Shown here: positions 14,797-62,463 of the stretch, piece after piece
How the letters are laid out: each line of letters begins with the position of its first letter
Numbering within the stretch: the first letter of the stretch is position 1
The notes under the pieces: model-generated
Told to the model about the DNA's origin: nothing
The model's database searches: none
What the model saw: the letters and a program-made list of their open reading frames with translations, nothing else
Translations under genes and position numbers: made by a program
DNA from: Alphaproteobacteria bacterium UBA1908
GTDB taxonomy: Bacteria > Pseudomonadota > Alphaproteobacteria > Caedimonadales > UBA1908
Direction: 5' to 3'
NCBI GenBank assembly: GCA_002337525.1
Contig: DDGG01000031.1
Span: forward strand, 18,923-82,922
DNA length: 64,000 bases

Positions 14797-14927
14797 AATG
14801 ATAAAACCTCTCTGAAAGATATTCTCTTAAATCCTGCGCGACTATCTCATGAATTTGTTTAAATAGAAAGCGTTAAGAATAATACCATTTAAATAATTTA
14901 AACAATTCTAAAAGTGAAAAAGCATTT

Positions 14928-17720
14928 CTACAACTTACTTAGAGACTCTATCTTTTTTAACTTTTTTTGAAGCCTTTCCAAATGAGGCGAGTCTTTTGAA
15001 AAATGTTGTCTAACAACCAGAATGGACTGTTTATAGAAATCCAGGGCCTTTTGCTTTAAGGACCTTTGGTTCAAAACATTTTTGTTTGTAGCAAGCCTTT
15101 TCACATACAAGTCCCCCAGGGCCTCAAAACATTTGTACAGATCAGAATGAGCATTTTGTTTGTATATATTGAGAGGTTTCTGGAAGTGGGCTTCAGCATC
15201 ATCTAAACGGTTTTCAGCTAAATAGAGTTGACCCAGTTCGTATAGGGGATAAGCTCTTTTAATATGATCAAGCCCATAATGCTTGGTATATAAATCCACA
15301 ATCTTCCTTAGTATTTTGTGGGATTGATCAAATTTCCCCAGATTTCTATAAATTTTTCCTAAAAATACTGCATGCCAATACAAAGAAATATTATTCTCTC
15401 CTAAATATTCTTCCCGAGTTTTCAATGCTTTTTTGATAAGGTATTGGGCTTTCTTATAGTTACCCAAATCACTTTGCACACTTCCCAGGAAGGCTAGACT
15501 CCAGGCTGTTCTTAAATGATTATCACCAAAGTGGTCCTTATGAATAACAAGGGATTTTTTAAAACAATTTTGAGCCTTTTGAAGATTCCCTAAACTTGTA
15601 TAAACCTTACCCAAATAGACTAAAATCCATGCTGTCTCAATACTTTTCATACCATAATATTGTTCATATACCCCAAGAGCTTTTTCTAAAATATTTCTTG
15701 CTTGTTCATAATTTCCTAATTCCTCATAAATATTCCCAAGGTGCACCAGACTCCAAGCCGTCTTAATATGTTTTTTCCCGTAATAAACACCATAAATCAT
15801 ACACCCTTGTTCAACAAATTGTTTTCCGACAAAATACTCTCCTAAACGCCTGTGAACAGCTCCCAGAACAATATAAGACCGGGCCATTTTGACATCACTC
15901 TTTTCAGTAGAATTCTTATTAAGGTCTATTCCTTTTTGAAGAAATTTTTTTGCTTTCTTATCTTGATTTAACAAATAATAAGCCCAACCCAACTGATTAA
16001 ACAAATCCCCTTTAATATAGGTTTTCAGTAAAAGATCTTGCTTTAAAAAAATACTTATATGGTTAGTTATTAATTTTATTTTGGAGAAACTTCCTTTTTC
16101 TATTACATTATCCAAATAATCCTGCAAAAAACTCCCAATTATTTGAATAGATCTCTGCTTTTCAAGTAAATCCACAGCTTCATTCAGATAAGTCAAAGTA
16201 ATGGCCTGCACACTTCGATGCAAAGAAAGCGTCGAAACATTTTCAATCATCTGTTCACTGGTAATGAAAGAGTATTTTCGCAAATGGTGAATAAAGTTTT
16301 CCACGACAAGCTCAGGCTTTGACTTTTTCAGAAGTTCTACTGGAATATCCTGGGAATCAAGCACACTGATCAAAAGAAGCAGTTCTTTAAAGTTTGGATT
16401 TTCTTCCATAAGGGTATCAAGGGTCAGCGTAATAATGCCAAAACGTGTTTTCGTATAGTCGTTAAACTCTTTTAATAATAGCTTTTGGGCCTTATCAAAG
16501 CCTGGGGTGCGCCCCTGCAATCTTTTGAGATAAGTCTCAAAAGAAACATGCGCATCCTTGATATAATAGGCTGCCGTTGAAACATCGAGAGGGAAAGGAG
16601 GAAGTGAGTTTAAAAAGTATAGTTCTTCCCCTGAAGAAGGATGCGATTTCTGATCTTGGCCTCCTGAGAGAATCCTCCTGAAAAGACGTGCTTTTTCCGG
16701 AAGTGAAAGGGGAGGCACACGAAGGACTGAATTACTTTTTGAAACAAGATAATTTTTAACATTATCATCTCGTGTTGTTACAATAACATGGCCCTGTCCC
16801 CATACTGCCGGATCTTGGGGTAAGTATTTCCAGAATCCCTGAAGTGTTTCTACATTATCATAAATCAGAAGCCATTTTTGACGGGTCTTTAAAGCTCTTT
16901 TAACAAGCAAGAAAAGGCACTTTTCCCTTTCTTCTGAATCTCTGATTTCCCGAAGAAGCCTTACATCATATTTTTCTTCTTCTATCTGCGCCAGAGCCAT
17001 TGCCAGATCTGTAAAGGAATTTATCAGGCTTTCTTTTGTTTCCGCATTAATCTCCCAAACGACAGACATTTTCTGGGATTTGGCATACTGACGCGCCAAA
17101 GTTGTTTTCCCAGCCCCTCCAATGCCAACAAGGGCAACTGTCTGAATTTTCTCTGAGCCTTTTAATTTTTGATCAATTTTTGCCAAAAGATCCAGCCGTT
17201 GTAATAAAACAGAGTGATGAGGCAAGAAAAATTCAGAACGCACACTCTCTATTGTTCCGGCAACAGTGACCGCAAAATCTCTCACTTTTGGATAAAGAAA
17301 GCTTGCACATATAATGAACACGACCGTCAAAGCATAAAAAATGATCTTACGTCGTTGTTTCTTTCTTTGCAGTTCAAGAGAAAATGTACTTTCACAACCA
17401 AACTCTTGAACAGTCTTTTCTTCGTCATCTCCCGTTATGAACTGCTGATAATATTGCCTTACATATTTTTCCTGGCTTGATTTTTCAATAAAAGTCAGGA
17501 TTGTGTGTCGTCCCCCGGATCCAAGTTTTTGTGCAATTGCTTCCAAATGACTTTCAACGGTACTGGGCGAAATAGAAAGACGTAAGGCTATAGATTTCAC
17601 ATTCCAGCCACTTACAAGACAAGCAATAACATCAACCTGACGTCGCGTAAATTTGATCCCACCAATATTTTGTAAATGTTGCTCGTAGAAAATACGAGCA
17701 ACATCATCCCTGTCTGGCAT
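14928..17720 (-). CDS. LuxR/GerE HTH - single TM - NB-ARC/STAND NTPase - TPR protein (paralog A)
   Basis: 930 aa. HTH GIKFTRRQVDVIACLVSGWNVKSIALRLSISPSTVESHLEAIAQKLG (aa 21-67). Hydrophobic IIFYALTVVFIICASFL (aa 126-142) follows the basic RKKQRRK. Walker A GIGGAGKT (aa 199-206), LLIYDNVE, VIVTTRD. C-terminal repeats of about 42 aa, e.g. YGKKHIKTAWSLVHLGNIYEELGNYEQARNILEKALGVYEQY. Confidence 0.75.
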   Translation of the reverse strand: MPDRDDVARIFYEQHLQNIGGIKFTRRQVDVIACLVSGWNVKSIALRLSISPSTVESHLEAIAQKLGSGGRHTILTFIEKSSQEKYVRQYYQQFITGDDEEKTVQEFGCESTFSLELQRKKQRRKIIFYALTVVFIICASFLYPKVRDFAVTVAGTIESVRSEFFLPHHSVLLQRLDLLAKIDQKLKGSEKIQTVALVGIGGAGKTTLARQYAKSQKMSVVWEINAETKESLINSFTDLAMALAQIEEEKYDVRLLREIRDSEEREKCLFLLVKRALKTRQKWLLIYDNVETLQGFWKYLPQDPAVWGQGHVIVTTRDDNVKNYLVSKSNSVLRVPPLSLPEKARLFRRILSGGQDQKSHPSSGEELYFLNSLPPFPLDVSTAAYYIKDAHVSFETYLKRLQGRTPGFDKAQKLLLKEFNDYTKTRFGIITLTLDTLMEENPNFKELLLLISVLDSQDIPVELLKKSKPELVVENFIHHLRKYSFITSEQMIENVSTLSLHRSVQAITLTYLNEAVDLLEKQRSIQIIGSFLQDYLDNVIEKGSFSKIKLITNHISIFLKQDLLLKTYIKGDLFNQLGWAYYLLNQDKKAKKFLQKGIDLNKNSTEKSDVKMARSYIVLGAVHRRLGEYFVGKQFVEQGCMIYGVYYGKKHIKTAWSLVHLGNIYEELGNYEQARNILEKALGVYEQYYGMKSIETAWILVYLGKVYTSLGNLQKAQNCFKKSLVIHKDHFGDNHLRTAWSLAFLGSVQSDLGNYKKAQYLIKKALKTREEYLGENNISLYWHAVFLGKIYRNLGKFDQSHKILRKIVDLYTKHYGLDHIKRAYPLYELGQLYLAENRLDDAEAHFQKPLNIYKQNAHSDLYKCFEALGDLYVKRLATNKNVLNQRSLKQKALDFYKQSILVVRQHFSKDSPHLERLQKKLKKIESLSKL

Positions 17721-28949: not shown

Positions 28950-30278
28950 CTAACGCTCGGTCAGGGCATTTTGCCTTGCTCGTAGAATAGGTTTAAGAAT
29001 ATAGTCCAGAATTGTTTTCTTACCCGTAATAATATCAGCAGAGGCCGTCATACCAGGAATAATCGCCACTTCTTTTGACGATTTGCTCAGACGATTTCCA
29101 AGCGTTCTCAACCTGATCTTGAAATAGCTTATATTCGGATCTTTTTCATCCTGAATAGAGTCCGCACTAATTTGGACCAATTCTGCTTCAAGCCCCCCAT
29201 AAATTGCAAAATCATAAGCGGTTAGTTTAATAGAGGCAGGAAGCCCGGGACGCAAGAAAGCAATATCAGCCGGCAAAACCTTGGCTTCAATCAGTAGTGT
29301 ATCTTCCAAAGGCACAATCTCAACCAGATCTTCTCCTGGTTGGACAACACCGCCAATTGTTGCTACCAAAAGTTGCTTTACAATCCCCTTAACCGGAGAC
29401 TTCACTTCTGTCCGCGATAACCGATCGCCCTCAGTTTTGAAAGACTCCTGCGCCGCACCCAGTTTATTTTCAGCTTCTTGTAGAGCCTTGCTGTCTTGTT
29501 CCGCAAAATCAAGGGGAACCTGTTTCAGCTTATCTTTTGCCTGCTTCAAAGCAGAGCGAGCCCTTTCAATATTCACTTTAACAGAGCCCAGTTCACCACG
29601 AAGTTTCACCGCTTCACTTTTTAGACGCAAAAAATCAACGCGTGCTGTTAAACCTCGTTTCACCAGCGGTTCATTGATTTTGACTTCTTCCTCTGAAAGG
29701 GCAACCTGATCTTTCAACTGGCTTTTTCTATTCTCCAGCTCAAGAAGTTCCTGTTTTTTTTGTTCAACTTCCTGTTTTGCAATATTAAGCTGGTTATTGT
29801 ACTGCCCCATACGTGCCCGATAACGCGCCATTGCTCTTTCGGCAACAACCGGAGCCTTTTTGCTGACCTCTTCGGGAACAACATATGGGATTTGATTAAT
29901 TTGGGCCCGCAATCGACCAACCTCTGATAAATAACGGTAATAAAGGTTCTCTCCTTCCTGTAAACGGGCGCTTGCCTGGGTGTTATCAATCTTTAAAAGA
30001 ACCTGACCTTTTTCAACAATATCTCCTTCCCTGATATAAATATCTTGAACGATTCCTCCCTCCAGGTGATCTACACGTTGAATCTGGCTCGAAGGAATAA
30101 CCCGGCCTTCTGCCCGAGTAAGCTCATCTATTTCAGCATAATTCGCCCACAAAATAAAAATAACAATGAAAAGGCCTGTCGCATATAATAGGATAGGTGC
30201 AAATCTTTCTTCCTTTCGAAAGTTTGCCGCTGCAATTGGTTTCATGAAGTCAACATCATCAGGGTTTATCTTTGTCAT
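28950..30278 (-). CDS. Type I secretion membrane fusion protein (HlyD/LssD family)
   Basis: Start set at Met37 of the track ORF (30278), 4 nt after the ABC gene stop. N-terminal TM, long coiled-coil region, and C-terminal AIIPGMTASADIITGKKTILDYILKPI typical of T1SS HlyD proteins. Confidence 0.9.
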   Translation of the reverse strand: MTKINPDDVDFMKPIAAANFRKEERFAPILLYATGLFIVIFILWANYAEIDELTRAEGRVIPSSQIQRVDHLEGGIVQDIYIREGDIVEKGQVLLKIDNTQASARLQEGENLYYRYLSEVGRLRAQINQIPYVVPEEVSKKAPVVAERAMARYRARMGQYNNQLNIAKQEVEQKKQELLELENRKSQLKDQVALSEEEVKINEPLVKRGLTARVDFLRLKSEAVKLRGELGSVKVNIERARSALKQAKDKLKQVPLDFAEQDSKALQEAENKLGAAQESFKTEGDRLSRTEVKSPVKGIVKQLLVATIGGVVQPGEDLVEIVPLEDTLLIEAKVLPADIAFLRPGLPASIKLTAYDFAIYGGLEAELVQISADSIQDEKDPNISYFKIRLRTLGNRLSKSSKEVAIIPGMTASADIITGKKTILDYILKPILRARQNALTER

Positions 30279-30282
30279 TTTC

Positions 30283-32553: not shown

Positions 32554-32581
32554 GTTAGGCTCAAGAAGCTACTTTCACAAT

Positions 32582-32597
32582 AATAAACTTTAGTTTA
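32582..32597. promoter_or_regulatory. Perfect palindrome ATAAACT-TT-AGTTTAT in the divergent T1SS ABC / tolC promoter region
   Basis: Read directly from the 96-bp divergent intergenic region. 7-bp arms, 2-nt spacer. Candidate operator. Confidence 0.25.
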
Positions 32598-32649
32598 TGA
32601 TAAATAAAAGTTAATTTTTTCAAAAAAGTATGTAGGGAGAAAATTAAGG

Positions 32650-33987
32650 ATGCCAACGAAAATCCGCATTTTCACAATGACAACACTTGCAACTATGGGC
32701 TTTATCGTCAGCTCCTTCACCAGTTGCTTTTCTGATCAGACCGTTAAGAAACTACCCGAAGCTGTTGTTAAAGCCGTCTCCGACAATCCCGGTATTCTTG
32801 CGAATAAAGCCGCCCAGGAGGCCACTGAACATCGCATAGATTTTGCAAAAGGGGGATACTACCCTACACTTGATCTACAGTTTGGAGGAGGTCATGAATA
32901 CACAAGGCAAAAATATCGTGAAAACAGCTTAAACAGCTCAAAAGTCAGTGGGGCCGTTGCCACCGATCGTTATGATCCGGCAATACGTGTTCGCCAGATG
33001 GTCTTTGACGGTTTTGAAACGCCGCATCAAGTTGAAAAAGCAGAAAATGAACGCCTTCAGGCTGAGCGAAAAACGTTAGAAACAGAAGAGTTAACTGCGT
33101 TTTCAGCCTGTGAGCAATATATTGCTGTTCGACGTTTTGGGCGTTTGTTACGCTTGGCAGAAGATAACGTAAGCGTTCACAAAAATATTCTTTCTAAGGT
33201 TCAAGCTCTCATTTCAGCAGGAAAAGCAACAGTCGCAGACCGTCACAATGTTGAATCTCGCCTGCATGATGCTGAAGCCGCAGTCCAAGATATTCAAGGA
33301 GATTTGGACTCGGCCGTCGCTCAATTCATTGATGTCGTTGGCAGTAAACCTGGACGCCTCGTCAACGCAGAGATTTCGAAAGAGCACATCCCTGCAACAA
33401 TTAATGAGGCTCTTGAAGTTGCACGAAAAAACAACCACTCTTTAGTTTTAGCGGAAGCCTCTATTGACGTTGCAAAATCGGATATTGATGTGGTTCGATC
33501 GGCTTACTATCCTCGCCTGGATATAGAGCTTGATGCAACCCGTCGCCATAATGTCGGCGCCAAGTCAGGCTTTGAAAACAACCTTACGGCTCTTGCCGTT
33601 GTGCGTTTCAACGTTTTCAATGGCGGTAAAGATAGCGCTCGTGTTCGTGAGTTGCGCGCCAAAATGACAGAAGCCAAATACCTGATGAAAAATCAAAAAA
33701 GAACAGCAGAGCGCGAAGTTCGCGTTTCCTGGAGTGAAATGAGAAGCGCTCTTGGACAGGCAAAAGTCCTTCGCCAGGCTGTTGAAGCCAAAAAAAGCGT
33801 AAGAGATACATATCTGGAGCAATTCCGCCTTGGGCAACGCAGTTTTCTTGACATCCTTGATGCGAGTCACGAATTCTTCCTCGCCAAGGGATCTTTGATC
33901 ACCGCTGATGCAACTTATGATTTGGCAAATGCACGCCTTCTCGCGTCAACAGGCCTTTTGAAAAAAACTATTTTAGACCTGATATAA
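32650..33987 (+). CDS. tolC: TolC-family outer membrane channel (type I secretion)
   Basis: 445 aa. Signal peptide and two tandem OEP repeats (YYPTLDLQFGG.. and YYPRLDIELDA..). Divergent from the T1SS ABC/MFP operon. Confidence 0.85.
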   Translation: MPTKIRIFTMTTLATMGFIVSSFTSCFSDQTVKKLPEAVVKAVSDNPGILANKAAQEATEHRIDFAKGGYYPTLDLQFGGGHEYTRQKYRENSLNSSKVSGAVATDRYDPAIRVRQMVFDGFETPHQVEKAENERLQAERKTLETEELTAFSACEQYIAVRRFGRLLRLAEDNVSVHKNILSKVQALISAGKATVADRHNVESRLHDAEAAVQDIQGDLDSAVAQFIDVVGSKPGRLVNAEISKEHIPATINEALEVARKNNHSLVLAEASIDVAKSDIDVVRSAYYPRLDIELDATRRHNVGAKSGFENNLTALAVVRFNVFNGGKDSARVRELRAKMTEAKYLMKNQKRTAEREVRVSWSEMRSALGQAKVLRQAVEAKKSVRDTYLEQFRLGQRSFLDILDASHEFFLAKGSLITADATYDLANARLLASTGLLKKTILDLI

Positions 33988-50913: not shown

Positions 50914-53244
50914 ATGTCACTTGAAATTCCAAAGGGTGATTTGTACCCTATTCTTCCCTTAAGGGATATTGTTGTCTTCCCTCATATGGTTGTCCCTCTT
51001 TTTGTCGGTCGGGAAAAATCTGTGAAAGCTCTTGAGTCATTATTGAGTGATGACCAGGAAATTCTTTTAATCACCCAAAAAGACGCTTCTCTGGAAGATC
51101 CCCAACATCGGGATTTATTCACTATTGGAACACTTGCCAAGGTTCTTCAACTCCTAAAACTGCCTGATGGCACTGTTAAAGTTCTTGTTGAAGGACAGTC
51201 ACGAGCGCAGGTATTACGTTTTTCAGAGTCAAAGGATTTTTTCCAGGCCTACGCCAGTCGCCTGGACGAAGGAGAAAGCAAACCAACAGAGACAGAAGCC
51301 CTGACTCGAACAGCTACCTCCCTGTTTGAGCAATATTTGAAACTCAACAGCAAAATTCCCCCGGATATTCTAGTCTCTATTTCAAAAATCAGTGATCCCA
51401 ACAAATTGGCAGATACCCTGGCGTCACATCTGGCTTTGAAAATAGAGGACAAACAAGCTTTACTAGAGATTTCCAATATTAACAAACGCATTGAACAAGT
51501 TTGCTCTCATATGGAAGGCGAAATTTCTGTTCTCCAAACAGAAAAACGTATTCGGGGACGTGTCAAACGCCAAATGGAAAAATCTCAACGTGAGTACTAT
51601 TTGAATGAGCAAATGAAAGCGATTCAAAAAGAGTTGGGCGATTCAGAAGATGGTCAGGATGAGTTAAGCGAATTTGAAGCACGTCTATCAAAAACAAAAC
51701 TTAGTAAAGAAGCCCGGGAAAAAGCATCTTCAGAATTAAAAAAACTGCGCACCATGAATCCCATGGCATCAGAAGCGAGTGTTGTCCGCAATTACCTTGA
51801 ATGGATTCTGGATATTCCCTGGAAGAAACCCACCAAAGTCAAAAAAGATTTACTTGCAGCAGAAAAAATCCTGGATCAGGATCACTATGGTCTTAAAAAA
51901 GTCAAAGAGCGTATTCTGGAATATTTAGCGGTTCAAAATCGTGTAGGAAAGGTAAAAGGTCCTATTTTGTGTCTTGTTGGGCCGCCAGGCGTTGGAAAAA
52001 CTTCCCTTGGTCAATCTATTGCCAAGGCAACAGGACGTAAATTTGTTCGCATGGCCCTGGGTGGTGTTCGTGATGAAGCTGAAATTCGTGGACATCGCCG
52101 CACGTATATTGGATCGATGCCTGGCAAGATCATTCAAGGAATGAAAAAAGCAGATAATTCCAATCCTCTTTTCTTACTCGACGAGATTGATAAACTAGGT
52201 GCAGACTGGCGAGGAGACCCTGCTTCCGCTCTCCTTGAAGTTCTTGATCCCGAACAAAACCTGGCATTTAACGATCACTATCTTGAAGTTGATTATGACT
52301 TGTCTGATGTCATGTTTGTCACAACAGCCAATAGTCTCAACATGCCACAGCCTCTCCTCGATCGCATGGAAATTATTCGTCTTTCGGGTTATACGGAAGA
52401 TGAAAAAGTAGAGATTGCAAAGCGCCACCTTATTTCAAAACAAATGAAACTTCACGGTCTTAAGAAAGATGAATGGGCAATAACAGATGATGCTTTACGT
52501 AAGTTAATTCGCAACTATACGCGCGAAGCGGGTGTCAGAAATCTTGAACGTGAGCTTGCAAATTTACTGCGGAAAGCCACTAAAAAAATACTGACGAAAG
52601 AAGCAAAATCGATCACAATTACAGAAGAAGCTCTTGAAGAAGATGCCGGCATTATTCGTTTCCGTTTCGGCGTCTCGGAACAGGAAGATCAGATTGGGGC
52701 CACAACAGGCCTTGCCTGGACCGAAGTTGGTGGAGAGTTATTAACAATTGAATCTGTTATGCTGCCGGGTAAAGGTAAAATGAAAATTACAGGAAAACTT
52801 GGTGAAGTTATGCAAGAATCAATTCAGGCGGCAGCAAGCTATGTCCGCTCCCAAGCAAATACCTATAACATTGACCAGGAACTCTTTGACAAGAAAGATC
52901 TCCATGTCCATGTCCCTGAAGGAGCGATTCCAAAAGATGGCCCTTCAGCTGGTATTGCCATGTGTACAACGATTGTATCTGTCTTGACCGGCATTCCAGT
53001 TCGTAAAGAAGTTGCCATGACAGGCGAAGTGACTCTAAGAGGGAAAGTGCTTGCTATTGGAGGGCTGAAAGAAAAACTTCTCGCTGCACATCGAGGTGGC
53101 ATTAAAACAGTTTTAATTCCCGAAGATAACAGAAAAGATCTTTCTGATATCCCGGATAATGTCAAAGAAGGCCTTAAAATTATTCCTGTCGAAACAGTAA
53201 ATCAAGTCCTGGATCATGCCCTGACAAAACCTTTAAAAAAGTAA
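50914..53244 (+). CDS. lon: Lon protease
   Basis: 776 aa. LPLRDIVVFPHMVVPLFVGREKS N-domain, Walker A GPPGVGKTS, and protease site DGPSAGIAM. Confidence 0.95.
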   Translation: MSLEIPKGDLYPILPLRDIVVFPHMVVPLFVGREKSVKALESLLSDDQEILLITQKDASLEDPQHRDLFTIGTLAKVLQLLKLPDGTVKVLVEGQSRAQVLRFSESKDFFQAYASRLDEGESKPTETEALTRTATSLFEQYLKLNSKIPPDILVSISKISDPNKLADTLASHLALKIEDKQALLEISNINKRIEQVCSHMEGEISVLQTEKRIRGRVKRQMEKSQREYYLNEQMKAIQKELGDSEDGQDELSEFEARLSKTKLSKEAREKASSELKKLRTMNPMASEASVVRNYLEWILDIPWKKPTKVKKDLLAAEKILDQDHYGLKKVKERILEYLAVQNRVGKVKGPILCLVGPPGVGKTSLGQSIAKATGRKFVRMALGGVRDEAEIRGHRRTYIGSMPGKIIQGMKKADNSNPLFLLDEIDKLGADWRGDPASALLEVLDPEQNLAFNDHYLEVDYDLSDVMFVTTANSLNMPQPLLDRMEIIRLSGYTEDEKVEIAKRHLISKQMKLHGLKKDEWAITDDALRKLIRNYTREAGVRNLERELANLLRKATKKILTKEAKSITITEEALEEDAGIIRFRFGVSEQEDQIGATTGLAWTEVGGELLTIESVMLPGKGKMKITGKLGEVMQESIQAAASYVRSQANTYNIDQELFDKKDLHVHVPEGAIPKDGPSAGIAMCTTIVSVLTGIPVRKEVAMTGEVTLRGKVLAIGGLKEKLLAAHRGGIKTVLIPEDNRKDLSDIPDNVKEGLKIIPVETVNQVLDHALTKPLKK

Positions 53245-58113: not shown

Positions 58114-58205
58114 AGAAAAATGTTTCTTTTCAGAAGACGCAAAAATCTTATCGGATGCGAAAAATTATAACCAACTCATCTATTGCAAAAAATTCCGATC
58201 CTGGA

Positions 58206-59039
58206 TTACTCTTTTGAAATAAGTTGTTCAAAGTCATTTATGAATTTTTCTGGATTCTTATTATAAATATCTTCAATATTTTTTTTCTCGAACAACTGCT
58301 CCACTGCACTTTTATTATAAACACTCCACTTGAAGAATTTTTGTGCATGTTCAGAAGTCATAATACCTAATAATGTCGCAAGTTTAGAAGGTACCTGGAA
58401 ATGATGCCAATCAATAGGGTGATTCCAATGCCCCCCCCAAATGGTGAAACCATTCTTGTGAAATATATCAATAACTTTTTCCGCCAATCCTTTTAAACCA
58501 TCCTTTTGAGCTCTAATGCGGTTTATATACAAAAGAGCACTTCCTGAAGGTTTGGTATAACGAATACCTTTTTTCTTACTTTCTTCATCTTCAAAATAGT
58601 GAAAAGGGTTTTGCACAGGATTAATATCAATTGCACATCCATATGCATGAATTGATACTCCTTGTTTGCTGCCATACTTAAATCTTGGATTAAAAGATGA
58701 AGTATTATTATCTTCCATTGATTTGTCGTCATTACCATCATAAAGATCCATGGGTAGAGCTTGATGTATAGGAAATTTTAAATTATATAGTTCGTCAAAT
58801 ATCTTTTTTACAAATAATGACACCGCATCTAGAACAACGATCTTTCCCTCTTTTATATTTCCTTCAAAATCATAATGTTTAAAAGAAATAATTTTTAACC
58901 TAGATACAGGAACAGGACTCCTCTCATTAATTATCTTTTTAAATTTCCTGGATAAAGGACTATAAGACTTTATTGAAGCACAAGTGTCGTGCGGACAAAA
59001 AAATAGAATTAAAAAAAACACACATATTTTTATATTCAT
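58206..59039 (-). CDS. Secreted M15-family zinc peptidoglycan peptidase (VanY/endolysin-like)
   Basis: 277 aa. Signal peptide MNIKICVFFLILFF. Zinc-ligand motifs SIHAYGCAIDIN (H..D) and WGGHWNHPIDWHHFQ. Very AT-rich. Starts 6 nt after the stop of STAND paralog B. Confidence 0.8.
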   Translation of the reverse strand: MNIKICVFFLILFFCPHDTCASIKSYSPLSRKFKKIINERSPVPVSRLKIISFKHYDFEGNIKEGKIVVLDAVSLFVKKIFDELYNLKFPIHQALPMDLYDGNDDKSMEDNNTSSFNPRFKYGSKQGVSIHAYGCAIDINPVQNPFHYFEDEESKKKGIRYTKPSGSALLYINRIRAQKDGLKGLAEKVIDIFHKNGFTIWGGHWNHPIDWHHFQVPSKLATLLGIMTSEHAQKFFKWSVYNKSAVEQLFEKKNIEDIYNKNPEKFINDFEQLISKE

Positions 59040-59045
59040 AATAAA

Positions 59046-62000
59046 TTACTCTTGTCTAAATTTAAGGGCATTATTAATTCTAATGAAATGTGAAGAATAG
59101 TTTGGTAATTTATTTTTTATAATTGCCATAGATTTCTGAAGATAATCTACAGACTTTTCTTTATATGATTCTGACAAGAGCTGATCGCCCTTTTTAAGTG
59201 AGTCTTTATAAAAACCCCAGTAAAGATTACTTAAATTTTCTAAAGCCAGGTACTCATTTAAATGTGAGATTTTTGAAAATGCTTGTAGAGACTTATTGAG
59301 ATAATAATTTGATAAACCATAGTGATGATCTAAAAGAAAACTTCTACCGAGCTCCAGAAAGACTTCTGCTGTTCTTAAGTGATTTTCACCGTATTCATTA
59401 ATAAAACTTTCCAAAACGTTTATTAATAAATTTTGCGCATGTTTATATTCACCTAAATCTATATGAAGTCTAGCTATATTTATTAAAACCCATTTAGTTC
59501 TAATATGTTCTTCCTCATGGTATTTTTTGTATATCTCAAAAGCGTTATTCAAAATGTTTTTAGAGTTTTTATAATCTTTTAGTTCCCTTAATGTATCTCC
59601 CAGAAGTACATTGGTCCAACCTATAAGTATATTATTTTGATCGTACTTACTTTTATAAATTGAAAGTCCCTCTTTTAAAACTTCTTTGGCTTTTGTAAAA
59701 CATCCCATTTCTCTGTATGCATTGCCTAAATAAATCAATACCCAACCAGTTTCAGTGTGTAATGGTCCATAGTGCTTTTTATATTTAGTTAGACCTTTAT
59801 ATAACAAGTTGATTGATTTATTGTAATCACCTAATTCTCTGCTTATATTACCCAAATAAACATACATCAAAGATACCTTTAAGTGATCTTCGCCATAATA
59901 CTCCTTAAAAATTTGCAAGCATTCTTCAAATATAGATTCTGCAAGTGCATATTGTCCCTGGGTTCTATATGTATTTGCTAAATGACGTTTAACATCCGCT
60001 ACTTTGATATGGTCTTTTCCATAGTAATTTTCATATATACGGATACTTTTTTTTAATTGTGTTTCTGCTTTACTGTACTGGCCTAGCTCTCTTTGAATAT
60101 TAGAAAAACTTATTAATGCCCAAGCTATTTTTTGGGGATTTTGTTTATAATGCTTTTTATAAATCTCAATGTTTTCCTGAATTAAATTTATTGCCTCTTC
60201 ATAATTTCCTGCTTCTCTTTGAATATTAGCAAGATGAATAGATTGCTCGGCAACGCTAAAATGATTTTTTCCATATTTTTTTATCTTAAACTGAATACTC
60301 TTATTAATAAGGTCCGTTGCTTTATTAGTGTACCCAAGATAATCATAAATAAGACCTAATCTCCCCATAATAGAATCTCTAATAGACTCATCTAGATAAT
60401 CTGTATTGTCCAAAAAGTGCTGTGTATGAATTTCCAAAAGGCTTACTCTTTGTGTATCTTTGTTCTCTAATGCTTCATTTATATCCTTAATAAGCGTATC
60501 AGAAATTATTTCCAGTAAAGAAATCCTGTCTTTTTTGCTCAAAAATTCAGTAACACAAAAAGGAATTATTTTATGAGAGCTTCTATGCACAGAAAATGCA
60601 GATGTTTTATTATTTATAACAAGAGATTCATCAGTAATCAAAGAGTATCTTTTTAAATAGTGAACAAAGTCATCAACAGAAATACTGTTTTTGTATTTCT
60701 TAAGCAAATCTTTTGGAATATTTTGAGAATCCAGTAGACTTATAAAAAAAAGAAGATCCCTGAAATCAGTATTTTCACGAACTAGGTTTCTAAGAGGTAA
60801 GGCTATAATATCATAACGAGTTTTTGAATACTGGCTTACCTCTTTTAATACATTTTTCTGCATTACAGAGAAAGCTTCAATTTGCTTGGACAGAAGATGA
60901 AGATATTGTTTGTAAGATATATTGCCATCTTTGATATAATATGCTGCAGTTGATGTATCAAGAGGATAATGTGGAATATGTTTAAGAAATTGCTTTATGT
61001 CTTTCTTTGATTTATTGTTTTTTTGTCCAATAATTTTTGTAAATAATTTAAATTTATCTTCTGAAGATAGTTCCCCCGGATTTATTACTTGATCAGCTCC
61101 TATGTAACTATTATTCATGATGTTGCTGTCGCGGGTTGTTATAATAATTTTTCCCTTTCCCCAACTTGTACTATCATAGGGGAAAAAATTTTGGATGTCA
61201 GAGAAAGTTTCTACATTATCATAAATTAAAATCCATCCTGGATTACCTTTAAGTCTTTGCTTAATAAAAAGAAGAAGTCTTTTTTCCCTAATATCTGATT
61301 CCTTAATTTCCTTTATTAATCTTAATTCTCTTTTATCTTCTTCTCTAAAAGTTAGGCTATAAGCCAGGATTTCAAAAGACCTTATAAGGCTCACGTGTGT
61401 TTCTGCGTTTATTTCCCAAATAACATTTGCTTTTTGCAAGCGCCCATAATGTCTGGCTAAGGTTGTTTTCCCGGAACCTCCTACTCCCGCCAGAACCACA
61501 GTTTGAATACCCGAATTATTTTTAAGTTTCTTATCAAGATCTTCCAACAGTTTTTTACGCTTTAATAAAACTGATTTATGTGGCAAGGGTAATTCAGATG
61601 ATATGCTTCTAACACTTAAGAAAGTGGGAGACATCTTTAGGTAAAGAAGACCAAGTGATGAAATAAGAAGTACGACAACCCCTAATATGATGAGCCTGGT
61701 ACTTCTTGCTTTCATGTTTTCTTTATATTTATGAGAAAAAGTTCTTGCCTGGGATACCCTGTGATCATCCTCTAAAAGTGTTGACTCATTACCTTTTAAA
61801 TGCTTGTAATAACGTCTTATCTCATCACTTTTTCCAGATTTCTCGACAAATTCTATGATATTGCTCCGCCCGCCAGAACCTAGTTTTTGGGCAATCAAAT
61901 CAAGATGACTTTCCACTGTGCTTGGCGCAATAGAAAGACGACGTCCAATTTCCTTGATAGTCCATCCACTTGCAACGCAAGAAATTACATCAATCTGTCG

Positions 62001-62072
62001 ACGCGTAAACTTGATACCACAAATCGTTTGTAAATATTTTGTATAGAGATCTTCCGAAGGCTTATTTTTCAT
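59046..62072 (-). CDS. LuxR/GerE HTH - single TM - NB-ARC/STAND NTPase - TPR protein (paralog B)
   Basis: 1008 aa. HTH GIKFTRRQIDVISCVASGWTIKEIGRRLSIAPSTVESHLDLIAQKLG. Hydrophobic LIILGVVVLLISSLGLLYL (aa 127-145) follows KARSTR. Walker A GVGGSGKT (aa 196-203), ILIYDNVE, IIITTRD. Long array of about 42-aa TPRs, e.g. YGKDHIKVADVKRHLANTYRTQGQYALAESIFEECLQIFKEY. Confidence 0.75.
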   Translation of the reverse strand: MKNKPSEDLYTKYLQTICGIKFTRRQIDVISCVASGWTIKEIGRRLSIAPSTVESHLDLIAQKLGSGGRSNIIEFVEKSGKSDEIRRYYKHLKGNESTLLEDDHRVSQARTFSHKYKENMKARSTRLIILGVVVLLISSLGLLYLKMSPTFLSVRSISSELPLPHKSVLLKRKKLLEDLDKKLKNNSGIQTVVLAGVGGSGKTTLARHYGRLQKANVIWEINAETHVSLIRSFEILAYSLTFREEDKRELRLIKEIKESDIREKRLLLFIKQRLKGNPGWILIYDNVETFSDIQNFFPYDSTSWGKGKIIITTRDSNIMNNSYIGADQVINPGELSSEDKFKLFTKIIGQKNNKSKKDIKQFLKHIPHYPLDTSTAAYYIKDGNISYKQYLHLLSKQIEAFSVMQKNVLKEVSQYSKTRYDIIALPLRNLVRENTDFRDLLFFISLLDSQNIPKDLLKKYKNSISVDDFVHYLKRYSLITDESLVINNKTSAFSVHRSSHKIIPFCVTEFLSKKDRISLLEIISDTLIKDINEALENKDTQRVSLLEIHTQHFLDNTDYLDESIRDSIMGRLGLIYDYLGYTNKATDLINKSIQFKIKKYGKNHFSVAEQSIHLANIQREAGNYEEAINLIQENIEIYKKHYKQNPQKIAWALISFSNIQRELGQYSKAETQLKKSIRIYENYYGKDHIKVADVKRHLANTYRTQGQYALAESIFEECLQIFKEYYGEDHLKVSLMYVYLGNISRELGDYNKSINLLYKGLTKYKKHYGPLHTETGWVLIYLGNAYREMGCFTKAKEVLKEGLSIYKSKYDQNNILIGWTNVLLGDTLRELKDYKNSKNILNNAFEIYKKYHEEEHIRTKWVLINIARLHIDLGEYKHAQNLLINVLESFINEYGENHLRTAEVFLELGRSFLLDHHYGLSNYYLNKSLQAFSKISHLNEYLALENLSNLYWGFYKDSLKKGDQLLSESYKEKSVDYLQKSMAIIKNKLPNYSSHFIRINNALKFRQE

Positions 62073-62463
62073 TTGATATATTGAATCTCTTGCTATTCTA
62101 TTAACTTCCCCACAGTTTTAATAATACAATTTTCTTATGTTTTTTTCCTTTTTAGCACATTTCTTATGATGTTACCCGTGATTTCTTCCAGGTCATTTAC
62201 CAGAAGGCAATATGAGTAATATCGATTTTCTATTCTTCTCTCCTGGTATAAGTACTTCGCACATTACAATAAACCAACACATACAGGGTAAAATCTAGTA
62301 AAATTAAAGAGATAACAACATGGCAGGGATAGTCATAGGCTTATAAGGATCGCTCAACAGAGAGCGGCCTTAGTTAGATAACAGAGATTAGAGCTATGAG
62401 TCGCGATGAACGAGGAAGACCCGAACATTGAAGTACAGGAATGGGTTTTAACAGTATGAGTTC

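What the first reader, a model, noticed from the sequence alone, without database searches (positions are those of the whole stretch)
59046..62072. Membrane-anchored 'inverted LAL' STAND protein: LuxR HTH, then one TM helix, then NB-ARC NTPase, then kinesin-light-chain-type TPR array
Seen in sequence: a 1008-aa ORF with four parts. (i) A LuxR/GerE-type HTH at the extreme N-terminus. (ii) A 19-residue hydrophobic stretch, LIILGVVVLLISSLGLLYL, preceded by the basic patch KARSTR, which is a positive-inside single-pass TM signature. (iii) An intact P-loop (GVGGSGKT), hhhhD (ILIYDNVE) and TTR (IIITTRD), as in NB-ARC/STAND NTPases. (iv) A C-terminal array of roughly 450 aa made of 42-residue TPRs. 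Established knowledge: MalT/LAL regulators are soluble and ordered NTPase-TPR-LuxR HTH, while ToxR/CadC-type regulators are HTH-TM-periplasmic sensor. Inference: this order is inverted and topologically paradoxical. One TM pass would place the DNA-binding domain and an ATP-dependent module on opposite sides of the membrane. Possible resolutions are a membrane tether or re-entrant helix, oligomerisation-driven membrane insertion as the output (as proposed for TM-effector antiviral STANDs), or export to a host cell as a eukaryote-like NB-ARC/TPR effector. I cannot tell from sequence alone whether this architecture has been characterised.
Basis: partly seen in the sequence, partly recalled or inferred. 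Interest (0 to 1): 0.75.

Follow-up and report, generated by a model that had tools for sequence, protein, structure and literature searches.

The report
Membrane-anchored NLR-like LuxR regulator family
This gene encodes a real but uncharacterised protein that joins a DNA-binding domain to an NLR-type ATP switch and repeat sensor through one membrane-spanning helix; it belongs to a large unnamed family, found mostly in bacteria that live inside protists, whose layout seems to put the DNA-binding part and the ATP-using part on opposite sides of the membrane.

Summary
ORF 59046-62072(-) encodes 1008 aa with four parts: LuxR/GerE HTH (22-74), one strongly hydrophobic helix (127-145), NB-ARC (about 157-512) and a TPR array (513-1007) that includes seven 42-residue repeats. 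The AlphaFold model has mean pLDDT 90.

It is not an oddity. An exhaustive search gave 922 cluster representatives at E<=1e-30. In 138 of them, 136 keep the HTH and 129 of the 136 with a P-loop keep one helix about 54 aa before it. Flanking charges predict N-in/C-out (94 vs 13, p=6e-14). All nucleotide-switch residues are invariant.

Named relatives come almost only from Holosporales/Paracaedibacteraceae/Rickettsiaceae endosymbionts, several copies per genome. Most carry an extra, probably TIR-like, domain that the window protein lacks. A 38%-identical paralog lies at 14928-17720. Both sit in low-GC patches of a genome whose Lon looks SAR116/Rhodospirillales-like.

"Inverted LAL" is a poor label. 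The NTPase is Apaf-1/CED-4-type, and DNA-binding-domain-first order already exists in AfsR and GutR. The new element is the helix.

Best reading (about 0.4): a ToxR-like single-pass regulator with its STAND sensor outside the cytoplasm. Against it: no even-cysteine bias, rare helix-less members, and no obvious periplasmic ATP source. No description was found in the literature.

The parts
59046..62072 (-). Complete ORF, 1008 aa: LuxR HTH, linker, one TM helix, NB-ARC, TPR
   Evidence: the ORF listing; Pfam; AF2 model. The identical protein is on 3 contigs, up to 268 kb.
61794..62057 (-). N-terminal LuxR/GerE-type HTH domain, residues 6-93 (Pfam GerE 22-74 = nt 61851-62009), plus two extra family-conserved helices (69-93)
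   Evidence: Pfam GerE 40.5 bits, E 2e-10; pLDDT >90; 58% identical to the paralog and 36% across the family.
61695..61784 (-). Disordered basic linker, residues 97-126, ending in KARSTR. This is the site where about 90% of relatives carry an extra domain of about 200 aa, probably TIR-like.
   Evidence: pLDDT <50; 10-13% identity across the family; long-form insert analysed.
61638..61694 (-). Single transmembrane helix LIILGVVVLLISSLGLLYL, residues 127-145
   Evidence: KD 2.78, Hessa sum -3.3, and the only such segment in the protein. Its position is conserved (median 49-54 aa before the P-loop) and its hydrophobicity is conserved (74% strongly hydrophobic), but its sequence is not (16% identity).
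60537..61604 (-). NB-ARC / AP-ATPase module (NBD-HD1-WHD), residues 157-512. Walker A GVGGSGKT 196-203 (nt 61464-61487); Walker B ILIYDN 281-286; TTR 312-314; PxxPLD 367-372; MHD-like SVHRS 494-498 (nt 60579-60593).
   Evidence: Pfam NB-ARC 50 bits. Invariant G199, G201, K202, T312, T313, P370, L371, D372, R419; D285, N286 and H496 at >=90% in 78 sequences. Foldseek finds CED-4, Apaf-1 and ZAR1.
59052..60536 (-). C-terminal TPR solenoid, residues 513-1007. It includes seven regular 42-residue kinesin-light-chain-type repeats (562 to about 856). It is the most divergent folded part of the protein (24% identity).
   Evidence: TPR_12 207.8 bits, TPR_10 119.6 bits; PDB profile hits KLC1/KLC2 at E about 1e-32; helix period 42-43; divergence.
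58206..59039 (-). Downstream gene 6 nt after the stop codon: secreted-looking Peptidase_M15_4 (277 aa). It lies in the same low-GC patch and is probably co-transcribed. It is not a conserved partner elsewhere.
   Evidence: Pfam 63.1 bits; 6-nt gap; GC 27-37% over 58200-62200; no homolog next to 70 other family loci.
14928..17720 (-). Paralog in the same window: 930 aa, same GerE-TM-NB-ARC-TPR short form, 38% identical
   Evidence: BLASTP 552 bits; Pfam GerE 41 bits and NB-ARC 42.9 bits; TM KIIFYALTVVFIICASFLY and P-loop at 199; GC about 33% over 14800-16400.
62144..62160 (-). 17-mer ATGTGCTAAAAAGGAAA, 72-88 nt upstream of the start codon. It is shared (15 of 17 positions) with the paralog's upstream region at 17771-17787. 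It is a candidate shared promoter or operator element (weak evidence).
   Evidence: these are the only two matches in the window at up to 2 mismatches (0.16 expected). The pattern was derived from these two sites, so the test is post hoc.

Best explanation
The gene encodes a single-pass inner-membrane signalling protein. It belongs to a large, unnamed branch of the STAND (NLR-like) NTPases.

What is shown: an N-terminal LuxR-type HTH domain, a flexible linker of about 30 residues, one membrane-spanning helix, then (about 12 residues later) a complete NB-ARC nucleotide switch and a divergent TPR sensor.

What I infer about how it works: it acts as a one-component transmembrane transcription regulator.
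1. The HTH stays in the cytoplasm. It has no signal peptide, it is a folded domain, and the flank on its side is the positively charged one.
2. The helix crosses the membrane once.
3. The NB-ARC-TPR module therefore lies on the far (periplasmic) side. There, ligand binding to the TPRs together with nucleotide exchange drives oligomerisation, as in other STAND proteins.
4. Oligomerisation clusters the helices. It brings the tethered HTH domains together at the inner face of the membrane, so that they bind DNA as dimers or multimers and switch on target promoters, possibly including the gene's own.

In logic this is AfsR/MalT (a NOD-TPR module gating a DNA-binding domain) combined with ToxR/CadC (a membrane-tethered DNA-binding domain controlled from outside). 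Release of the HTH by regulated proteolysis is an alternative last step.

The nucleotide needed outside the cytoplasm would be available to bacteria that live in a host's cytosol and import host ATP. That is the lifestyle of nearly all named carriers of the family. In this window the two copies look horizontally acquired.
For: Identity of the parts.

Family-wide conservation of the layout:
- 125 relatives.
- 71 of 79 family ORFs in reference genomes have the HTH in the same ORF.
- 922 representatives at E<=1e-30.
- In 138 of them, 136 have the HTH, 136 have a P-loop, 129 of those 136 have a TM-grade helix at a fixed distance (median 54 aa, IQR 50-58), and 126 of those 129 have exactly one.
- The helix conserves hydrophobicity (74%) but not sequence (16% identity). 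That is what a plain membrane span looks like, not a protein-protein interface.

Orientation:
- K+R in the N-flank is 3.8-3.9 against 2.1-2.4 in the C-flank; net charge +2.9 against +0.6.
- N>C in 64 of 78 sequences and in 94 vs 13 (p 6e-14).
- The N-terminus is hydrophilic, with no signal peptide.

A working nucleotide switch: Walker A, Walker B D-N, TTR, PxxPLD and the MHD-like His are invariant or at least 90% conserved.

Sensor-like divergence: TPR 24% identity against NBD 43%.

Stand-alone gene: no conserved neighbour in about 70 loci, as expected for a one-component regulator.

Precedents:
- AfsR's NOD+TPR inhibit its DNA-binding domain, and ATP binding relieves this (PMC10936776).
- A His-Asp switch in the AfsR NOD controls activity (bioRxiv 10.64898/2026.09.02.748808).
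- CadC is a membrane-integrated DNA-binding receptor (PMC6320335, PMC5430869).

Lifestyle link: named carriers are Ca. Caedibacter/Paracaedimonas acanthamoebae (chromosome and plasmid), Ca. Paracaedibacter symbiosus, Holosporaceae, Paracaedibacteraceae, Rickettsiaceae, Megaera and Finniella. CP008936 and JQAK are obligate amoeba endosymbionts, and ATP/ADP translocase is a hallmark of those lineages (PMC4198247, PMC5751055).

Weak support: the C-terminal module has 2.2-fold fewer cysteines than the N-terminal module.
Against: - Every characterised STAND/NLR works in a cytoplasm. The periplasm of a free-living Gram-negative bacterium is generally held to lack ATP, yet the nucleotide-binding residues are invariant here.
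- The window's organism does not look like a classical endosymbiont. Its Lon is 79-80% identical to marine Alphaproteobacteria MAGs and a Ca. Puniceispirillum MAG, and about 73% identical to Rhodospirillales. No Holosporales or Rickettsiales appear among the best 120 hits. The window carries ordinary respiratory and metabolic genes and no ATP/ADP translocase.
- The C-terminal module shows no even-cysteine bias (90 even, 116 odd, mean 5.6 Cys). That is not what a disulfide-bonded periplasmic domain would show.
- Rare but intact helix-less members exist (L025:172-3357, L026, L046, P0299). In them all domains must share one compartment.
- No DNA target is known. The only candidate operator is a post-hoc 17-mer, and no palindrome was found upstream.
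- Topology was inferred from hydrophobicity and charge statistics only. No dedicated predictor and no experiment was available.
Confidence: 0.4

Rival explanations
1. Cytoplasmic NLR-like conflict or immunity protein (Avs / TIR-NLR logic). The NB-ARC-TPR module stays in the cytoplasm and senses an invader or a stress protein. The hydrophobic helix is a membrane anchor or the effector itself: once clustered by oligomerisation it perturbs the membrane. The N-terminal HTH (with the TIR-like domain in most relatives) is an accessory or autoregulatory part. This requires an N-out orientation or a non-canonical membrane association.
For: - All known STANDs are cytoplasmic and ATP-dependent, and the nucleotide motifs are invariant here.
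- There is no even-cysteine bias in the C-terminal module.
- Helix-less members exist.
- Most relatives carry a probable TIR-like domain. The long-form model's best structural matches are the TIR-NLRs RPP1 and Roq1, and Avs5.
- The family shows features typical of immune-type STANDs: expansion into paralogs, tandem arrays, plasmid copies, nearby mobile-element genes and divergent TPRs.
- TM effectors are listed among STAND-associated modules in PMC13581612.
Against: - The positive-inside bias points the other way (94 vs 13, p 6e-14).
- This reading would export a folded HTH (95 aa), or in most relatives 300 aa of HTH plus TIR-like domain, without a signal peptide. There it would meet neither DNA nor the cytoplasmic NAD pool.
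- PADLOC gives no meaningful hit (best E 6e-4, on the HTH only).
- No enzymatic effector is present, and the TIR-like insert has no invariant acidic residue.
- The carriers are mostly obligate intracellular bacteria with little phage exposure (my inference).
- The helix is too uniformly hydrophobic to be hidden in a soluble resting state.
Confidence: 0.25
2. Host-targeted effector. The protein, with its eukaryote-like NB-ARC, KLC-type TPR and TIR-like parts, is translocated into the protist host (for example by a type IV system). There it inserts into a host membrane through its helix, and its repeats bind host proteins.
For: - The family is concentrated in protist endosymbionts, with several to many copies per genome and copies on plasmids.
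- The TPRs most resemble kinesin light chain and LGN.
- TPR-rich ORFs in Megaira are interpreted in the literature as putative host-interaction effectors, and those genomes carry type IV secretion systems (PMC10132079).
- The low-GC, horizontally mobile character fits effector repertoires.
Against: - The bacterial-type LuxR HTH is the most constant accessory part (136 of 138) and has no obvious use in a host.
- The helix is very hydrophobic (Hessa sum -3.3, down to -8 in relatives). By my own knowledge, such a segment would be captured by the bacterial inner membrane rather than secreted.
- No secretion signal could be tested.
- The window's organism looks free-living, and the only secretion system in the window is type I.
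- The same two-compartment problem would arise in a host membrane.
Confidence: 0.12
3. In this particular genome the two copies are horizontally acquired passengers that are not integrated into host regulation. They are intact reading frames but functionally idle or decaying here, whatever the family does in endosymbionts.
For: - Both copies sit in low-GC patches (27-37% and about 33%, against about 41% for the window).
- Their closest relatives are only 38-51% identical and come from other lineages.
- Split, pseudogenised copies occur elsewhere in the family (P0025/L076).
Against: - Both ORFs are full length (1008 and 930 aa), with every catalytic and structural motif intact.
- The identical protein is seen on three contigs.
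- The two copies are 38% identical, so they are old and have been kept apart under constraint.
- Low GC partly reflects the Lys/Asn/Ile/Tyr-rich repeat composition.
Confidence: 0.08

Closest known systems
AfsR (Streptomyces; 'large SARP': SARP DNA-binding domain, then NOD/NB-ARC, then TPR)
   Same: - Same order: DNA-binding domain first, then an NB-ARC-type NOD, then TPRs.
- Same superfamily of NTPase.
- NCBIfam AfsR and PDB 8k60 match the TPR region.
- In AfsR the NOD+TPR hold the DNA-binding domain off and ATP binding relieves this (PMC10936776). A His-Asp motif in the NOD is the switch (bioRxiv 10.64898/2026.09.02.748808). The equivalent His496 is conserved here.
   Different: - AfsR is soluble and actinobacterial.
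- Its DNA-binding domain is an OmpR-type winged helix plus BTAD, not a LuxR/GerE HTH. No Trans_reg_C or BTAD hit was found.
- AfsR has no TM helix between the DNA-binding domain and the NOD.
- The NCBIfam AfsR score is 53 bits against a cutoff of 1430.
- The MHD-like motif here reads H-R, not H-D.
MalT / LAL regulators (large ATP-binding LuxR family)
   Same: A STAND NTPase, helical repeats and a LuxR-type HTH in one polypeptide. The idea is the same: ligand- and ATP-driven multimerisation controls DNA binding. The HTH matches the MalT HTH (NCBIfam, residues 22-75).
   Different: - The order is reversed: in MalT the HTH is C-terminal.
- The NTPase belongs to a different STAND clade. Here NB-ARC scores 50 bits and AAA_16 is below its cutoff, and Foldseek finds CED-4, Apaf-1 and ZAR1.
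- MalT is soluble.
GutR (Bacillus subtilis glucitol regulator)
   Same: By my recollection of the literature it has an N-terminal HTH, then a STAND NTPase, then TPR-like repeats, with ligand-induced ATP binding. It is cited as a non-immune STAND transcription factor in PMC13581612.
   Different: It is soluble, with no TM helix. No sequence comparison was made here because the GutR sequence was not on hand.
ToxR / CadC-type membrane-integrated one-component regulators
   Same: The overall plan matches: an N-terminal cytoplasmic DNA-binding domain, a flexible linker, one TM helix and a C-terminal sensor on the far side, all in a stand-alone gene (PMC6320335, PMC5430869). The predicted N-in/C-out orientation also matches.
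   Different: - ToxR and CadC use an OmpR-type winged helix.
- Their periplasmic sensors are small domains that need no nucleotide. Here the C-terminal part is an 860-aa ATP-switch plus TPR array, which is unprecedented outside a cytoplasm.
- There is no sequence relationship.
TIR-NB-ARC receptors (plant RPP1/Roq1) and bacterial antiviral STANDs (Avs)
   Same: They share the NB-ARC fold. Long-form relatives have a probable TIR-like domain before the NOD and give RPP1, Roq1 and Avs5 as best structural matches. They also share a repeat sensor at the C-terminus, paralog expansion and a divergent sensor.
   Different: - The window protein lacks the TIR-like domain.
- A TM helix separates the N-terminal module from the NOD.
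- A LuxR HTH is present.
- PADLOC gives no match.
- The TIR-like insert has no conserved catalytic residue.
FxSxx-COOH system TPR protein (NCBIfam NF040586)
   Same: It is the best full-length profile match: residues 171-902, 205 bits. This places the protein in the same bacterial NB-ARC-TPR branch, with the 'DN' Walker B motif.
   Different: The score is below the family cutoff (300). That family has no HTH or TM helix in the matched region, and no FxSxx peptide or maturase genes are nearby.

Membership tests
STAND NTPases, NB-ARC / AP-ATPase clade (Pfam PF00931) | Significant match to the NB-ARC profile, above the curated cutoff | tested here: met
   50.0 bits against a cutoff of 23.5, residues 173-366. 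The paralog scores 42.9 bits.
STAND NTPases, NB-ARC / AP-ATPase clade (Pfam PF00931) | Walker A, Walker B, sensor-1 (TTR), GxP-like and MHD-like His motifs present and conserved | tested here: met
   GVGGSGKT, ILIYDN, TTR, PHYPLD and SVHRS are present, and are invariant or at least 90% conserved in 78 sequences. Walker B is D-N rather than D-D/E (128 of 136 sequences). The MHD-like motif is H-R.
STAND NTPases, NB-ARC / AP-ATPase clade (Pfam PF00931) | NBD-HD1-WHD three-dimensional fold | tested here: met
   AF2 pLDDT above 90 over the module. Foldseek finds CED-4 (4m9s), Apaf-1 (3shf, 1z6t) and ZAR1 (6j6i).
STAND NTPases, NB-ARC / AP-ATPase clade (Pfam PF00931) | Nucleotide binding or hydrolysis and nucleotide-dependent oligomerisation | not testable with these tools
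   This needs purified protein.
LuxR/GerE-type HTH regulators (PF00196) | Significant GerE profile match | tested here: met
   40.5 bits against a cutoff of 23.5, residues 22-74. Detected in 136 of 138 representatives.
LuxR/GerE-type HTH regulators (PF00196) | Sequence-specific DNA binding | not testable with these tools
   The only lead is a post-hoc shared 17-mer upstream of both paralogs.
LAL / MalT family | N-terminal MalT-type NTPase followed by repeats and a C-terminal LuxR HTH | tested here: not met
   The HTH is N-terminal. The NTPase is NB-ARC type, and AAA_16 scores 21 bits, below its cutoff of 32.6. NCBIfam MalT scores 34.6 bits against 537, on the HTH only.
AfsR / large SARP regulators | N-terminal SARP domain (OmpR-type winged helix plus BTAD) | tested here: not met
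   No Trans_reg_C or BTAD hit in the window protein. NCBIfam AfsR scores 53 bits against 1430, on the TPRs only.
AfsR / large SARP regulators | DNA-binding domain, then NB-ARC NOD, then TPR, in that order | tested here: met
   The order is shared, but here a TM helix is inserted between the DNA-binding domain and the NOD.
ToxR/CadC-like membrane-integrated one-component regulators | N-terminal DNA-binding domain, a single TM helix and a C-terminal domain, in one stand-alone protein | tested here: met
   Exactly one TM-grade segment in 126 of 129 relatives. No conserved partner gene.
ToxR/CadC-like membrane-integrated one-component regulators | OmpR-type winged-helix DNA-binding domain | tested here: not met
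   The DNA-binding domain is GerE type.
ToxR/CadC-like membrane-integrated one-component regulators | N-in / C-out topology, with the sensor in the periplasm | tested here: inconclusive
   The charge bias predicts N-in/C-out. Against this: invariant nucleotide motifs, no even-cysteine bias and helix-less relatives. No experimental topology is available.
Antiviral STAND (Avs) and other catalogued defence systems | Match to a defence-system model, a recognisable toxic effector domain and a defence-island context | tested here: not met
   PADLOC's best hits have E of 6e-4 or worse and fall on the HTH or the P-loop only. No enzymatic effector is present. The neighbours are housekeeping genes and an M15 peptidase.
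FxSxx-COOH system TPR protein (NF040586) | Score above the curated cutoff, with the associated peptide and maturase genes nearby | tested here: not met
   205 bits against a cutoff of 300. No such neighbours were found.
Kinesin-light-chain-type TPR (TPR_12 / TPR_10) | 42-residue repeat units matching TPR_12/TPR_10 | tested here: met
   207.8 and 119.6 bits; helix-pair period 42-43; KLC1/2 at E about 1e-32.

The most novel reading that the evidence does not exclude
This would be the first extracytoplasmic NLR/STAND receptor. The NB-ARC-TPR module sits in the periplasm. It uses nucleotides that reach the periplasm from a eukaryotic host's cytosol, the same pool that ATP/ADP translocases draw on. 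The protein would then report across the membrane to a tethered LuxR HTH (and, in most relatives, a TIR-like domain). The signal would be either 'I am inside a host cell' or the host's energy state together with a TPR-bound ligand. In effect it would be a bacterial hybrid of a Toll-like receptor and an NLR.
Probability: 0.2. Interest if true: 0.9.

Novelty: new variant of a known kind. Interest (0 to 1): 0.68.

Why it matters
STAND/NLR proteins are regarded as strictly intracellular switches, because they need ATP or ADP. Here a family of hundreds of sequence clusters places one conserved membrane span between the output domains (LuxR HTH, usually with a TIR-like domain) and the NB-ARC-TPR sensor. 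The charge pattern puts the two halves on opposite sides of the membrane.

Either outcome would be worth knowing:
- An NLR-type switch works outside the cytoplasm. That would be plausible only where host nucleotides reach the periplasm, and it would explain why the family is concentrated in ATP-scavenging endosymbionts of protists.
- The accepted rules for single-span topology fail for a whole family.

There are practical consequences as well. These proteins are currently annotated as generic 'TPR repeat' or 'LuxR' proteins and are counted as putative host-interaction effectors in symbiont genomes. They are among the most expanded regulator-like genes in Holosporales-type symbionts, whose regulation is essentially unknown. 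The question can be tested directly with standard topology reporters, nucleotide-binding assays and DNA-binding assays.

Tried and rejected
- Conserved operon partner. The adjacent M15 peptidase has no homolog next to any of about 70 other family loci. The largest neighbour cluster occurs in only 9 loci. Rejected.
- Known defence system. PADLOC gave nothing meaningful.
- LAL/MalT membership. Rejected on domain order and NTPase clade.
- Tat export of a pre-folded, nucleotide-loaded domain. The paralog has QRRKIIF before its helix, but most relatives have Lys-rich flanks with no twin arginine, and the signal would be internal. Rejected by inspection.
- A second hidden TM segment or a hairpin. 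The next most hydrophobic window is the P-loop strand (KD 0.84), and 126 of 129 relatives have exactly one TM-grade segment. Rejected.
- Relatives without an HTH as natural 'signal-anchor plus NB-ARC' proteins. The one I examined (P0025) is a split or pseudogenised long form, with GerE and insert fragments just upstream. Such cases therefore cannot be used to infer topology.
- ATP/ADP translocase in the window or in about 1 Mb of flanks of family loci. None was found. This is uninformative, because it samples only small parts of the genomes.
- A lux-box-like palindrome upstream of either paralog. None of 12 nt or longer was found. The promoter and terminator scan was at chance level.
- tRNA or integrase at the edges of the low-GC patch. 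None was found.
- Naming the window's organism. Only Lon similarity is available.
- Literature. Seven full-text searches and targeted reading of STAND surveys and of Holosporales and Megaira genome papers found no description of a LuxR-TM-NB-ARC-TPR protein.

Full report
**1.

The minus-strand ORF 59046..62072 starts with ATG and encodes 1008 aa.

Pfam gives these matches:
- GerE at residues 22-74 (40.5 bits against a cutoff of 23.5).
- NB-ARC at 173-366 (50.0 bits against 23.5).
- A very strong TPR_12/TPR_10 signal (207.8 and 119.6 bits) between about 550 and 910.

The segment LIILGVVVLLISSLGLLYL (127-145) is the only transmembrane-grade stretch in the protein. Its Kyte-Doolittle mean is 2.78 and its simple Hessa sum is -3.3 kcal/mol, against 0.84 and +8.8 for the runner-up, which is the P-loop strand. 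It has 5 Lys/Arg in the 15 residues before it and 2 in the 15 after. GVGGSGKT, ILIYDNVE and IIITTRD are at 196-203, 281-288 and 309-315.

An AlphaFold2 model built on 78 relatives has mean pLDDT 90 and pTM 0.76. It shows:
- a compact HTH domain (6-93);
- a disordered linker (97-126);
- an isolated helix (124-147);
- an NBD-HD-WHD module;
- an all-helical solenoid (513-1007), whose helix pairs start every 42-43 residues between 562 and 815.

Foldseek against the PDB returns CED-4, Apaf-1 and the ZAR1 resistosome for the NTPase part, and kinesin light chain, LGN and APPBP2 for the repeats. A sequence profile finds KLC1/KLC2 at E about 1e-32 and AfsR on the repeats only.

**2. It is one member of a large, coherent family**

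*Size.* A search with residues 1-539, which leaves the repeats out, returned 125 relatives. An exhaustive HMMER scan of 1.84 billion cluster representatives gave 4302 hits at E<=1e-3 and 922 at E<=1e-30. The best 150 were all below 1e-106.

*Architecture.* I examined 138 of those representatives that I had not seen before:

| Feature | Count |
|---|---|
| N-terminal HTH | 136 of 138 |
| Walker A | 136 of 138 |
| 'DN' Walker B | 128 of the 136 with Walker A |
| TM-grade helix at a fixed distance before the P-loop (median 54 residues, IQR 50-58) | 129 of those 136 |
| Exactly one such helix | 126 of those 129 |

In 78 aligned sequences G199, G201, K202, T312, T313, P370, L371, D372 and R419 are invariant. 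D285, N286 and H496 (the MHD-like 'S-x-H-R-S') are at least 90% conserved. The alignment also shows family signatures such as WEINAET, KTRY and LLDSQNIP.

*Conservation by domain.*

| Region | Mean pairwise identity |
|---|---|
| NBD | 43% |
| HD/WHD | 41% |
| HTH | 36% |
| TPR | 24% |
| Helix | 16% (but 74% strongly hydrophobic) |

The helix therefore behaves as a plain membrane span, and the repeats as a diversifying sensor.

**3. Where the family lives**

A scan of one genome per prokaryotic species found 67 convincing loci. The named ones are:
- Ca. Caedibacter (Paracaedimonas) acanthamoebae, on both chromosome and plasmid;
- Ca. Paracaedibacter symbiosus;
- 'Caedibacter sp. 38-128';
- Holosporales, Holosporaceae and Paracaedibacteraceae MAGs;
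- Rickettsiaceae MAGs.

Most of the rest are unspecified 'Alphaproteobacteria bacterium' MAGs. A few short contigs in unrelated bins (Flavobacteriales, Nitrospirota, Lactobacillales, a melainabacterial order) are probably binning errors. Named protein hits add Ca. Megaera polyxenophila (plasmid), Ca. Finniella inopinata and Silvanigrellaceae.

Genomes hold several copies: 6 loci in JAIEPE01 and 5 in MKUL01. Some are in tandem arrays of three (L005, L024, L025).

CP008936 and JQAK are obligate Acanthamoeba endosymbionts, and the plastid/parasite-type ATP/ADP translocase is described as a hallmark of these lineages (PMC4198247; also PMC5751055).

There is no conserved neighbouring gene. Integrase-, AlpA- and replication-like genes recur nearby.

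**4. The window's own setting**

The gene and a secreted-looking M15 peptidase gene, which starts 6 nt after its stop codon, form a low-GC patch. GC is 27-37% over 58200-62200, against about 41% for the window. The patch is inserted between asd/ald on one side and mlaC/mlaA, dsbA-like, lon and clpX on the other.

A paralog with the same short architecture lies at 14928-17720. It is 38% identical, has a TM helix KIIFYALTVVFIICASFLY and sits in DNA of about 33% GC.

The organism's Lon is 79-80% identical to marine Alphaproteobacteria MAGs and to a Ca. Puniceispirillum (SAR116) MAG, and about 73% identical to Rhodospirillales. No Holosporales or Rickettsiales appear among the best 120 hits. The window encodes ordinary respiratory, metabolic, transport and type I secretion genes, and no nucleotide translocase. 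The sequence also occurs in a Tara Oceans <0.22 um fraction.

The two copies therefore look horizontally acquired by a bacterium that is not an obvious endosymbiont.

**5. Short form and long form**

About 90% of the family (125 of 136) carries an extra region of about 200 residues between the HTH and the helix. Pfam does not recognise it in three examples. The evidence that it is TIR-like:
- An AlphaFold2 model of P0013 (pLDDT 81.7) shows a five-stranded alternating beta-alpha domain there.
- A profile of the region gives weak PDB hits, of which three of six are TIR domains: RPS4 at E 0.057, TLR2 and TLR15.
- One of 21 members hits Pfam TIR_2 at 5.9e-5, and another hits CAP12-PCTIR_TIR at 0.067.
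- The whole long-form model's best structural matches change to the TIR-NLRs RPP1 (628 aligned columns) and Roq1, and to Avs5.

I read the insert as a divergent TIR-like domain that is probably non-catalytic, since it has no invariant acidic residue. The window protein simply lacks it.

**6. The topological problem is real and family-wide**

The flank on the N-terminal side of the helix is the positively charged one. Mean K+R is 3.8-3.9 against 2.1-2.4, and net charge is +2.9 against +0.6. N>C holds in 64 of 78 sequences and in 94 against 13 in the independent sample (Wilcoxon p 6e-14). The N-terminus has no signal peptide and is a folded domain. By the positive-inside rule (established knowledge), the HTH and the TIR-like domain stay in the cytoplasm, and the NB-ARC-TPR module is translocated. 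Yet every residue that binds nucleotide is invariant, and the periplasm of free-living Gram-negative bacteria is held to lack ATP.

Three further observations bear on this:
- The C-terminal module is 2.2-fold poorer in cysteine than the N-terminal module (0.68% against 1.51%). That fits export, although TPRs are cysteine-poor anyway.
- It shows no excess of even cysteine counts (90 even, 116 odd). That argues against a disulfide-bonded periplasmic domain.
- Rare intact members have a hydrophilic linker instead of the helix (L025:172-3357, L026, L046, P0299). The module can therefore work in the same compartment as the HTH.

I could not run a dedicated topology predictor or any experiment.

**7. 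Most likely mechanism**

I favour, at about 0.4, a ToxR/CadC-like single-pass regulator whose outside part is a STAND switch. Ligand binding to the TPRs and nucleotide exchange drive oligomerisation. That clusters the helices and brings the tethered LuxR HTH domains together on DNA.

The steps rest on precedent:
- In AfsR the NOD and TPR domains inhibit the DNA-binding domain, and ATP binding relieves the inhibition (PMC10936776).
- A His-Asp motif in the AfsR NOD is the switch (bioRxiv 10.64898/2026.09.02.748808).
- CadC binds DNA while membrane-integrated (PMC6320335, PMC5430869).

The nucleotide paradox would dissolve in bacteria that live in host cytosol and import host ATP, because that ATP must pass through their periplasm. 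This is my inference. It fits the family's distribution but not, on present evidence, the window's organism.

Rivals:
- A cytoplasmic Avs/TIR-NLR-like conflict protein that uses the helix as anchor or effector (0.25).
- A translocated host-targeting effector (0.12).
- Idle horizontally acquired copies in this genome (0.08).

**8. Comparison with what is known**

- The protein is a member of the NB-ARC clade of STAND NTPases and of the GerE HTH and TPR_12 families, with all profile cutoffs met.
- It is not a LAL/MalT protein: the order and the NTPase clade are both wrong.
- It is not an AfsR/SARP protein: there is no SARP domain, and the score is 53 bits against 1430.
- It is not a ToxR-family protein: the HTH is of a different class.
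- It is not a catalogued defence system: PADLOC is negative.
- It is not an FxSxx-system TPR protein: 205 bits against 300, with no partner genes.

It resembles AfsR and GutR in order and ToxR in plan.

Public sources name its relatives only generically: 'LuxR C-terminal-related transcriptional regulator', 'tetratricopeptide repeat protein', 'NB-ARC domain-containing protein' and 'HTH and tetratricopeptide repeat-containing protein'. A 2026 survey of prokaryotic STANDs cites only MalT, GutR and AfsR as transcription-factor STANDs, and it mentions TM modules only among defence effectors (PMC13581612). A Megaira genome paper merely counts TPR ORFs as putative host-interaction effectors (PMC10132079).

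**9. Verdict**

The finding is real, reproducible across hundreds of sequences and uncharacterised.
- The 'inverted LAL' label should be dropped.
- The domain order is precedented.
- The conserved membrane span between the output and the NOD, with its implied split topology, is the new and puzzling feature.

I class it as a new variant of a known kind, a STAND-type transcription regulator. There is a real chance, about 0.2, that it is the first NLR-type switch working outside the cytoplasm.

Noticed in passing
window 14928-17720 (-): A second gene with the same short-form architecture (GerE-TM-NB-ARC-TPR, 930 aa). It is 38% identical to the finding's protein and lies in a patch of about 33% GC next to an MFS transporter gene (13273-14796).
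   Followed up: yes
window 58206-59039 (-): A Peptidase_M15_4 gene (277 aa) with a signal-peptide-like N-terminus (MNIKICVFFLILFFCPHDTCAS). It starts 6 nt after the STAND gene's stop codon and shares its low GC. It is probably co-transcribed, but it is not found next to family members elsewhere.
   Followed up: partly
window 62144-62160 (-) and 17771-17787 (-): A near-identical 17-mer (ATGTGCTAAAAAGGAAA / ATATGCTAATAAGGAAA) lies 72-88 nt and 51-67 nt upstream of the two paralogs' start codons. These are the only two matches in the window. The pattern is post hoc, so significance is marginal.
   Followed up: partly
P0013 residues ~115-255; most loci L002-L067: About 90% of family members have an extra five-stranded alpha/beta domain between the HTH and the TM helix. 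It gives weak but recurrent TIR matches, and the whole-protein model's best structural hits are the TIR-NLRs RPP1 and Roq1. It has no conserved catalytic-looking residue.
   Followed up: partly
L025:172-3357, L026:7889-11203, L046:9143-12382; P0299: Intact family members in which a hydrophilic linker replaces the hydrophobic helix. L025:172-3357 is the first gene of a tandem array whose other two copies keep the helix.
   Followed up: partly
L005, L024, L025 (tandem triplets); L011 (CP008937 plasmid); P0005 (Megaera plasmid): Paralogs occur in head-to-tail arrays of three and on plasmids of amoeba and ciliate endosymbionts. Integrase-, AlpA- and replication-like genes recur within 4 kb.
   Followed up: partly
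L076:3293-6427 (P0025): A long-form gene split into three ORFs (GerE 75 aa, a 104-aa fragment, and TM-NB-ARC-TPR 808 aa). It was read on 11 contigs; the three places shown, from three different samples, have the same GerE ORF and the same main gene, and the 104-aa fragment is called in two of them. It is either a fixed pseudogene or a naturally split version.
   Followed up: partly
P0120: A 345-aa 'NB-ARC domain-containing protein' attributed to the bdelloid rotifer Rotaria magnacalcarata matches the NTPase core at 32% identity (E 2e-41). It could be symbiont contamination or horizontal transfer into the rotifer.
   Followed up: no
e.g. L013:5438-6199, L033:6207-7094: An unannotated protein family of about 250-295 aa occurs within 4 kb of the STAND gene in 9 of about 70 loci. 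A second such family occurs in 5 loci. Neither was identified.
   Followed up: no
window 28950-33987: A type I secretion cluster: a HlyD-family adaptor, an ABC exporter with an N-terminal C39 peptidase domain, and an outer-membrane factor. Together these suggest export of a double-glycine-leader peptide or bacteriocin.
   Followed up: no
window 50914-53244 (+): The Lon protease places the organism nearest to marine Alphaproteobacteria MAGs and a SAR116-type MAG (79-80% identity), not to Holosporales or Rickettsiales. The same proteins occur in a Tara Oceans <0.22 um size fraction, which hints at very small cells.
   Followed up: partly
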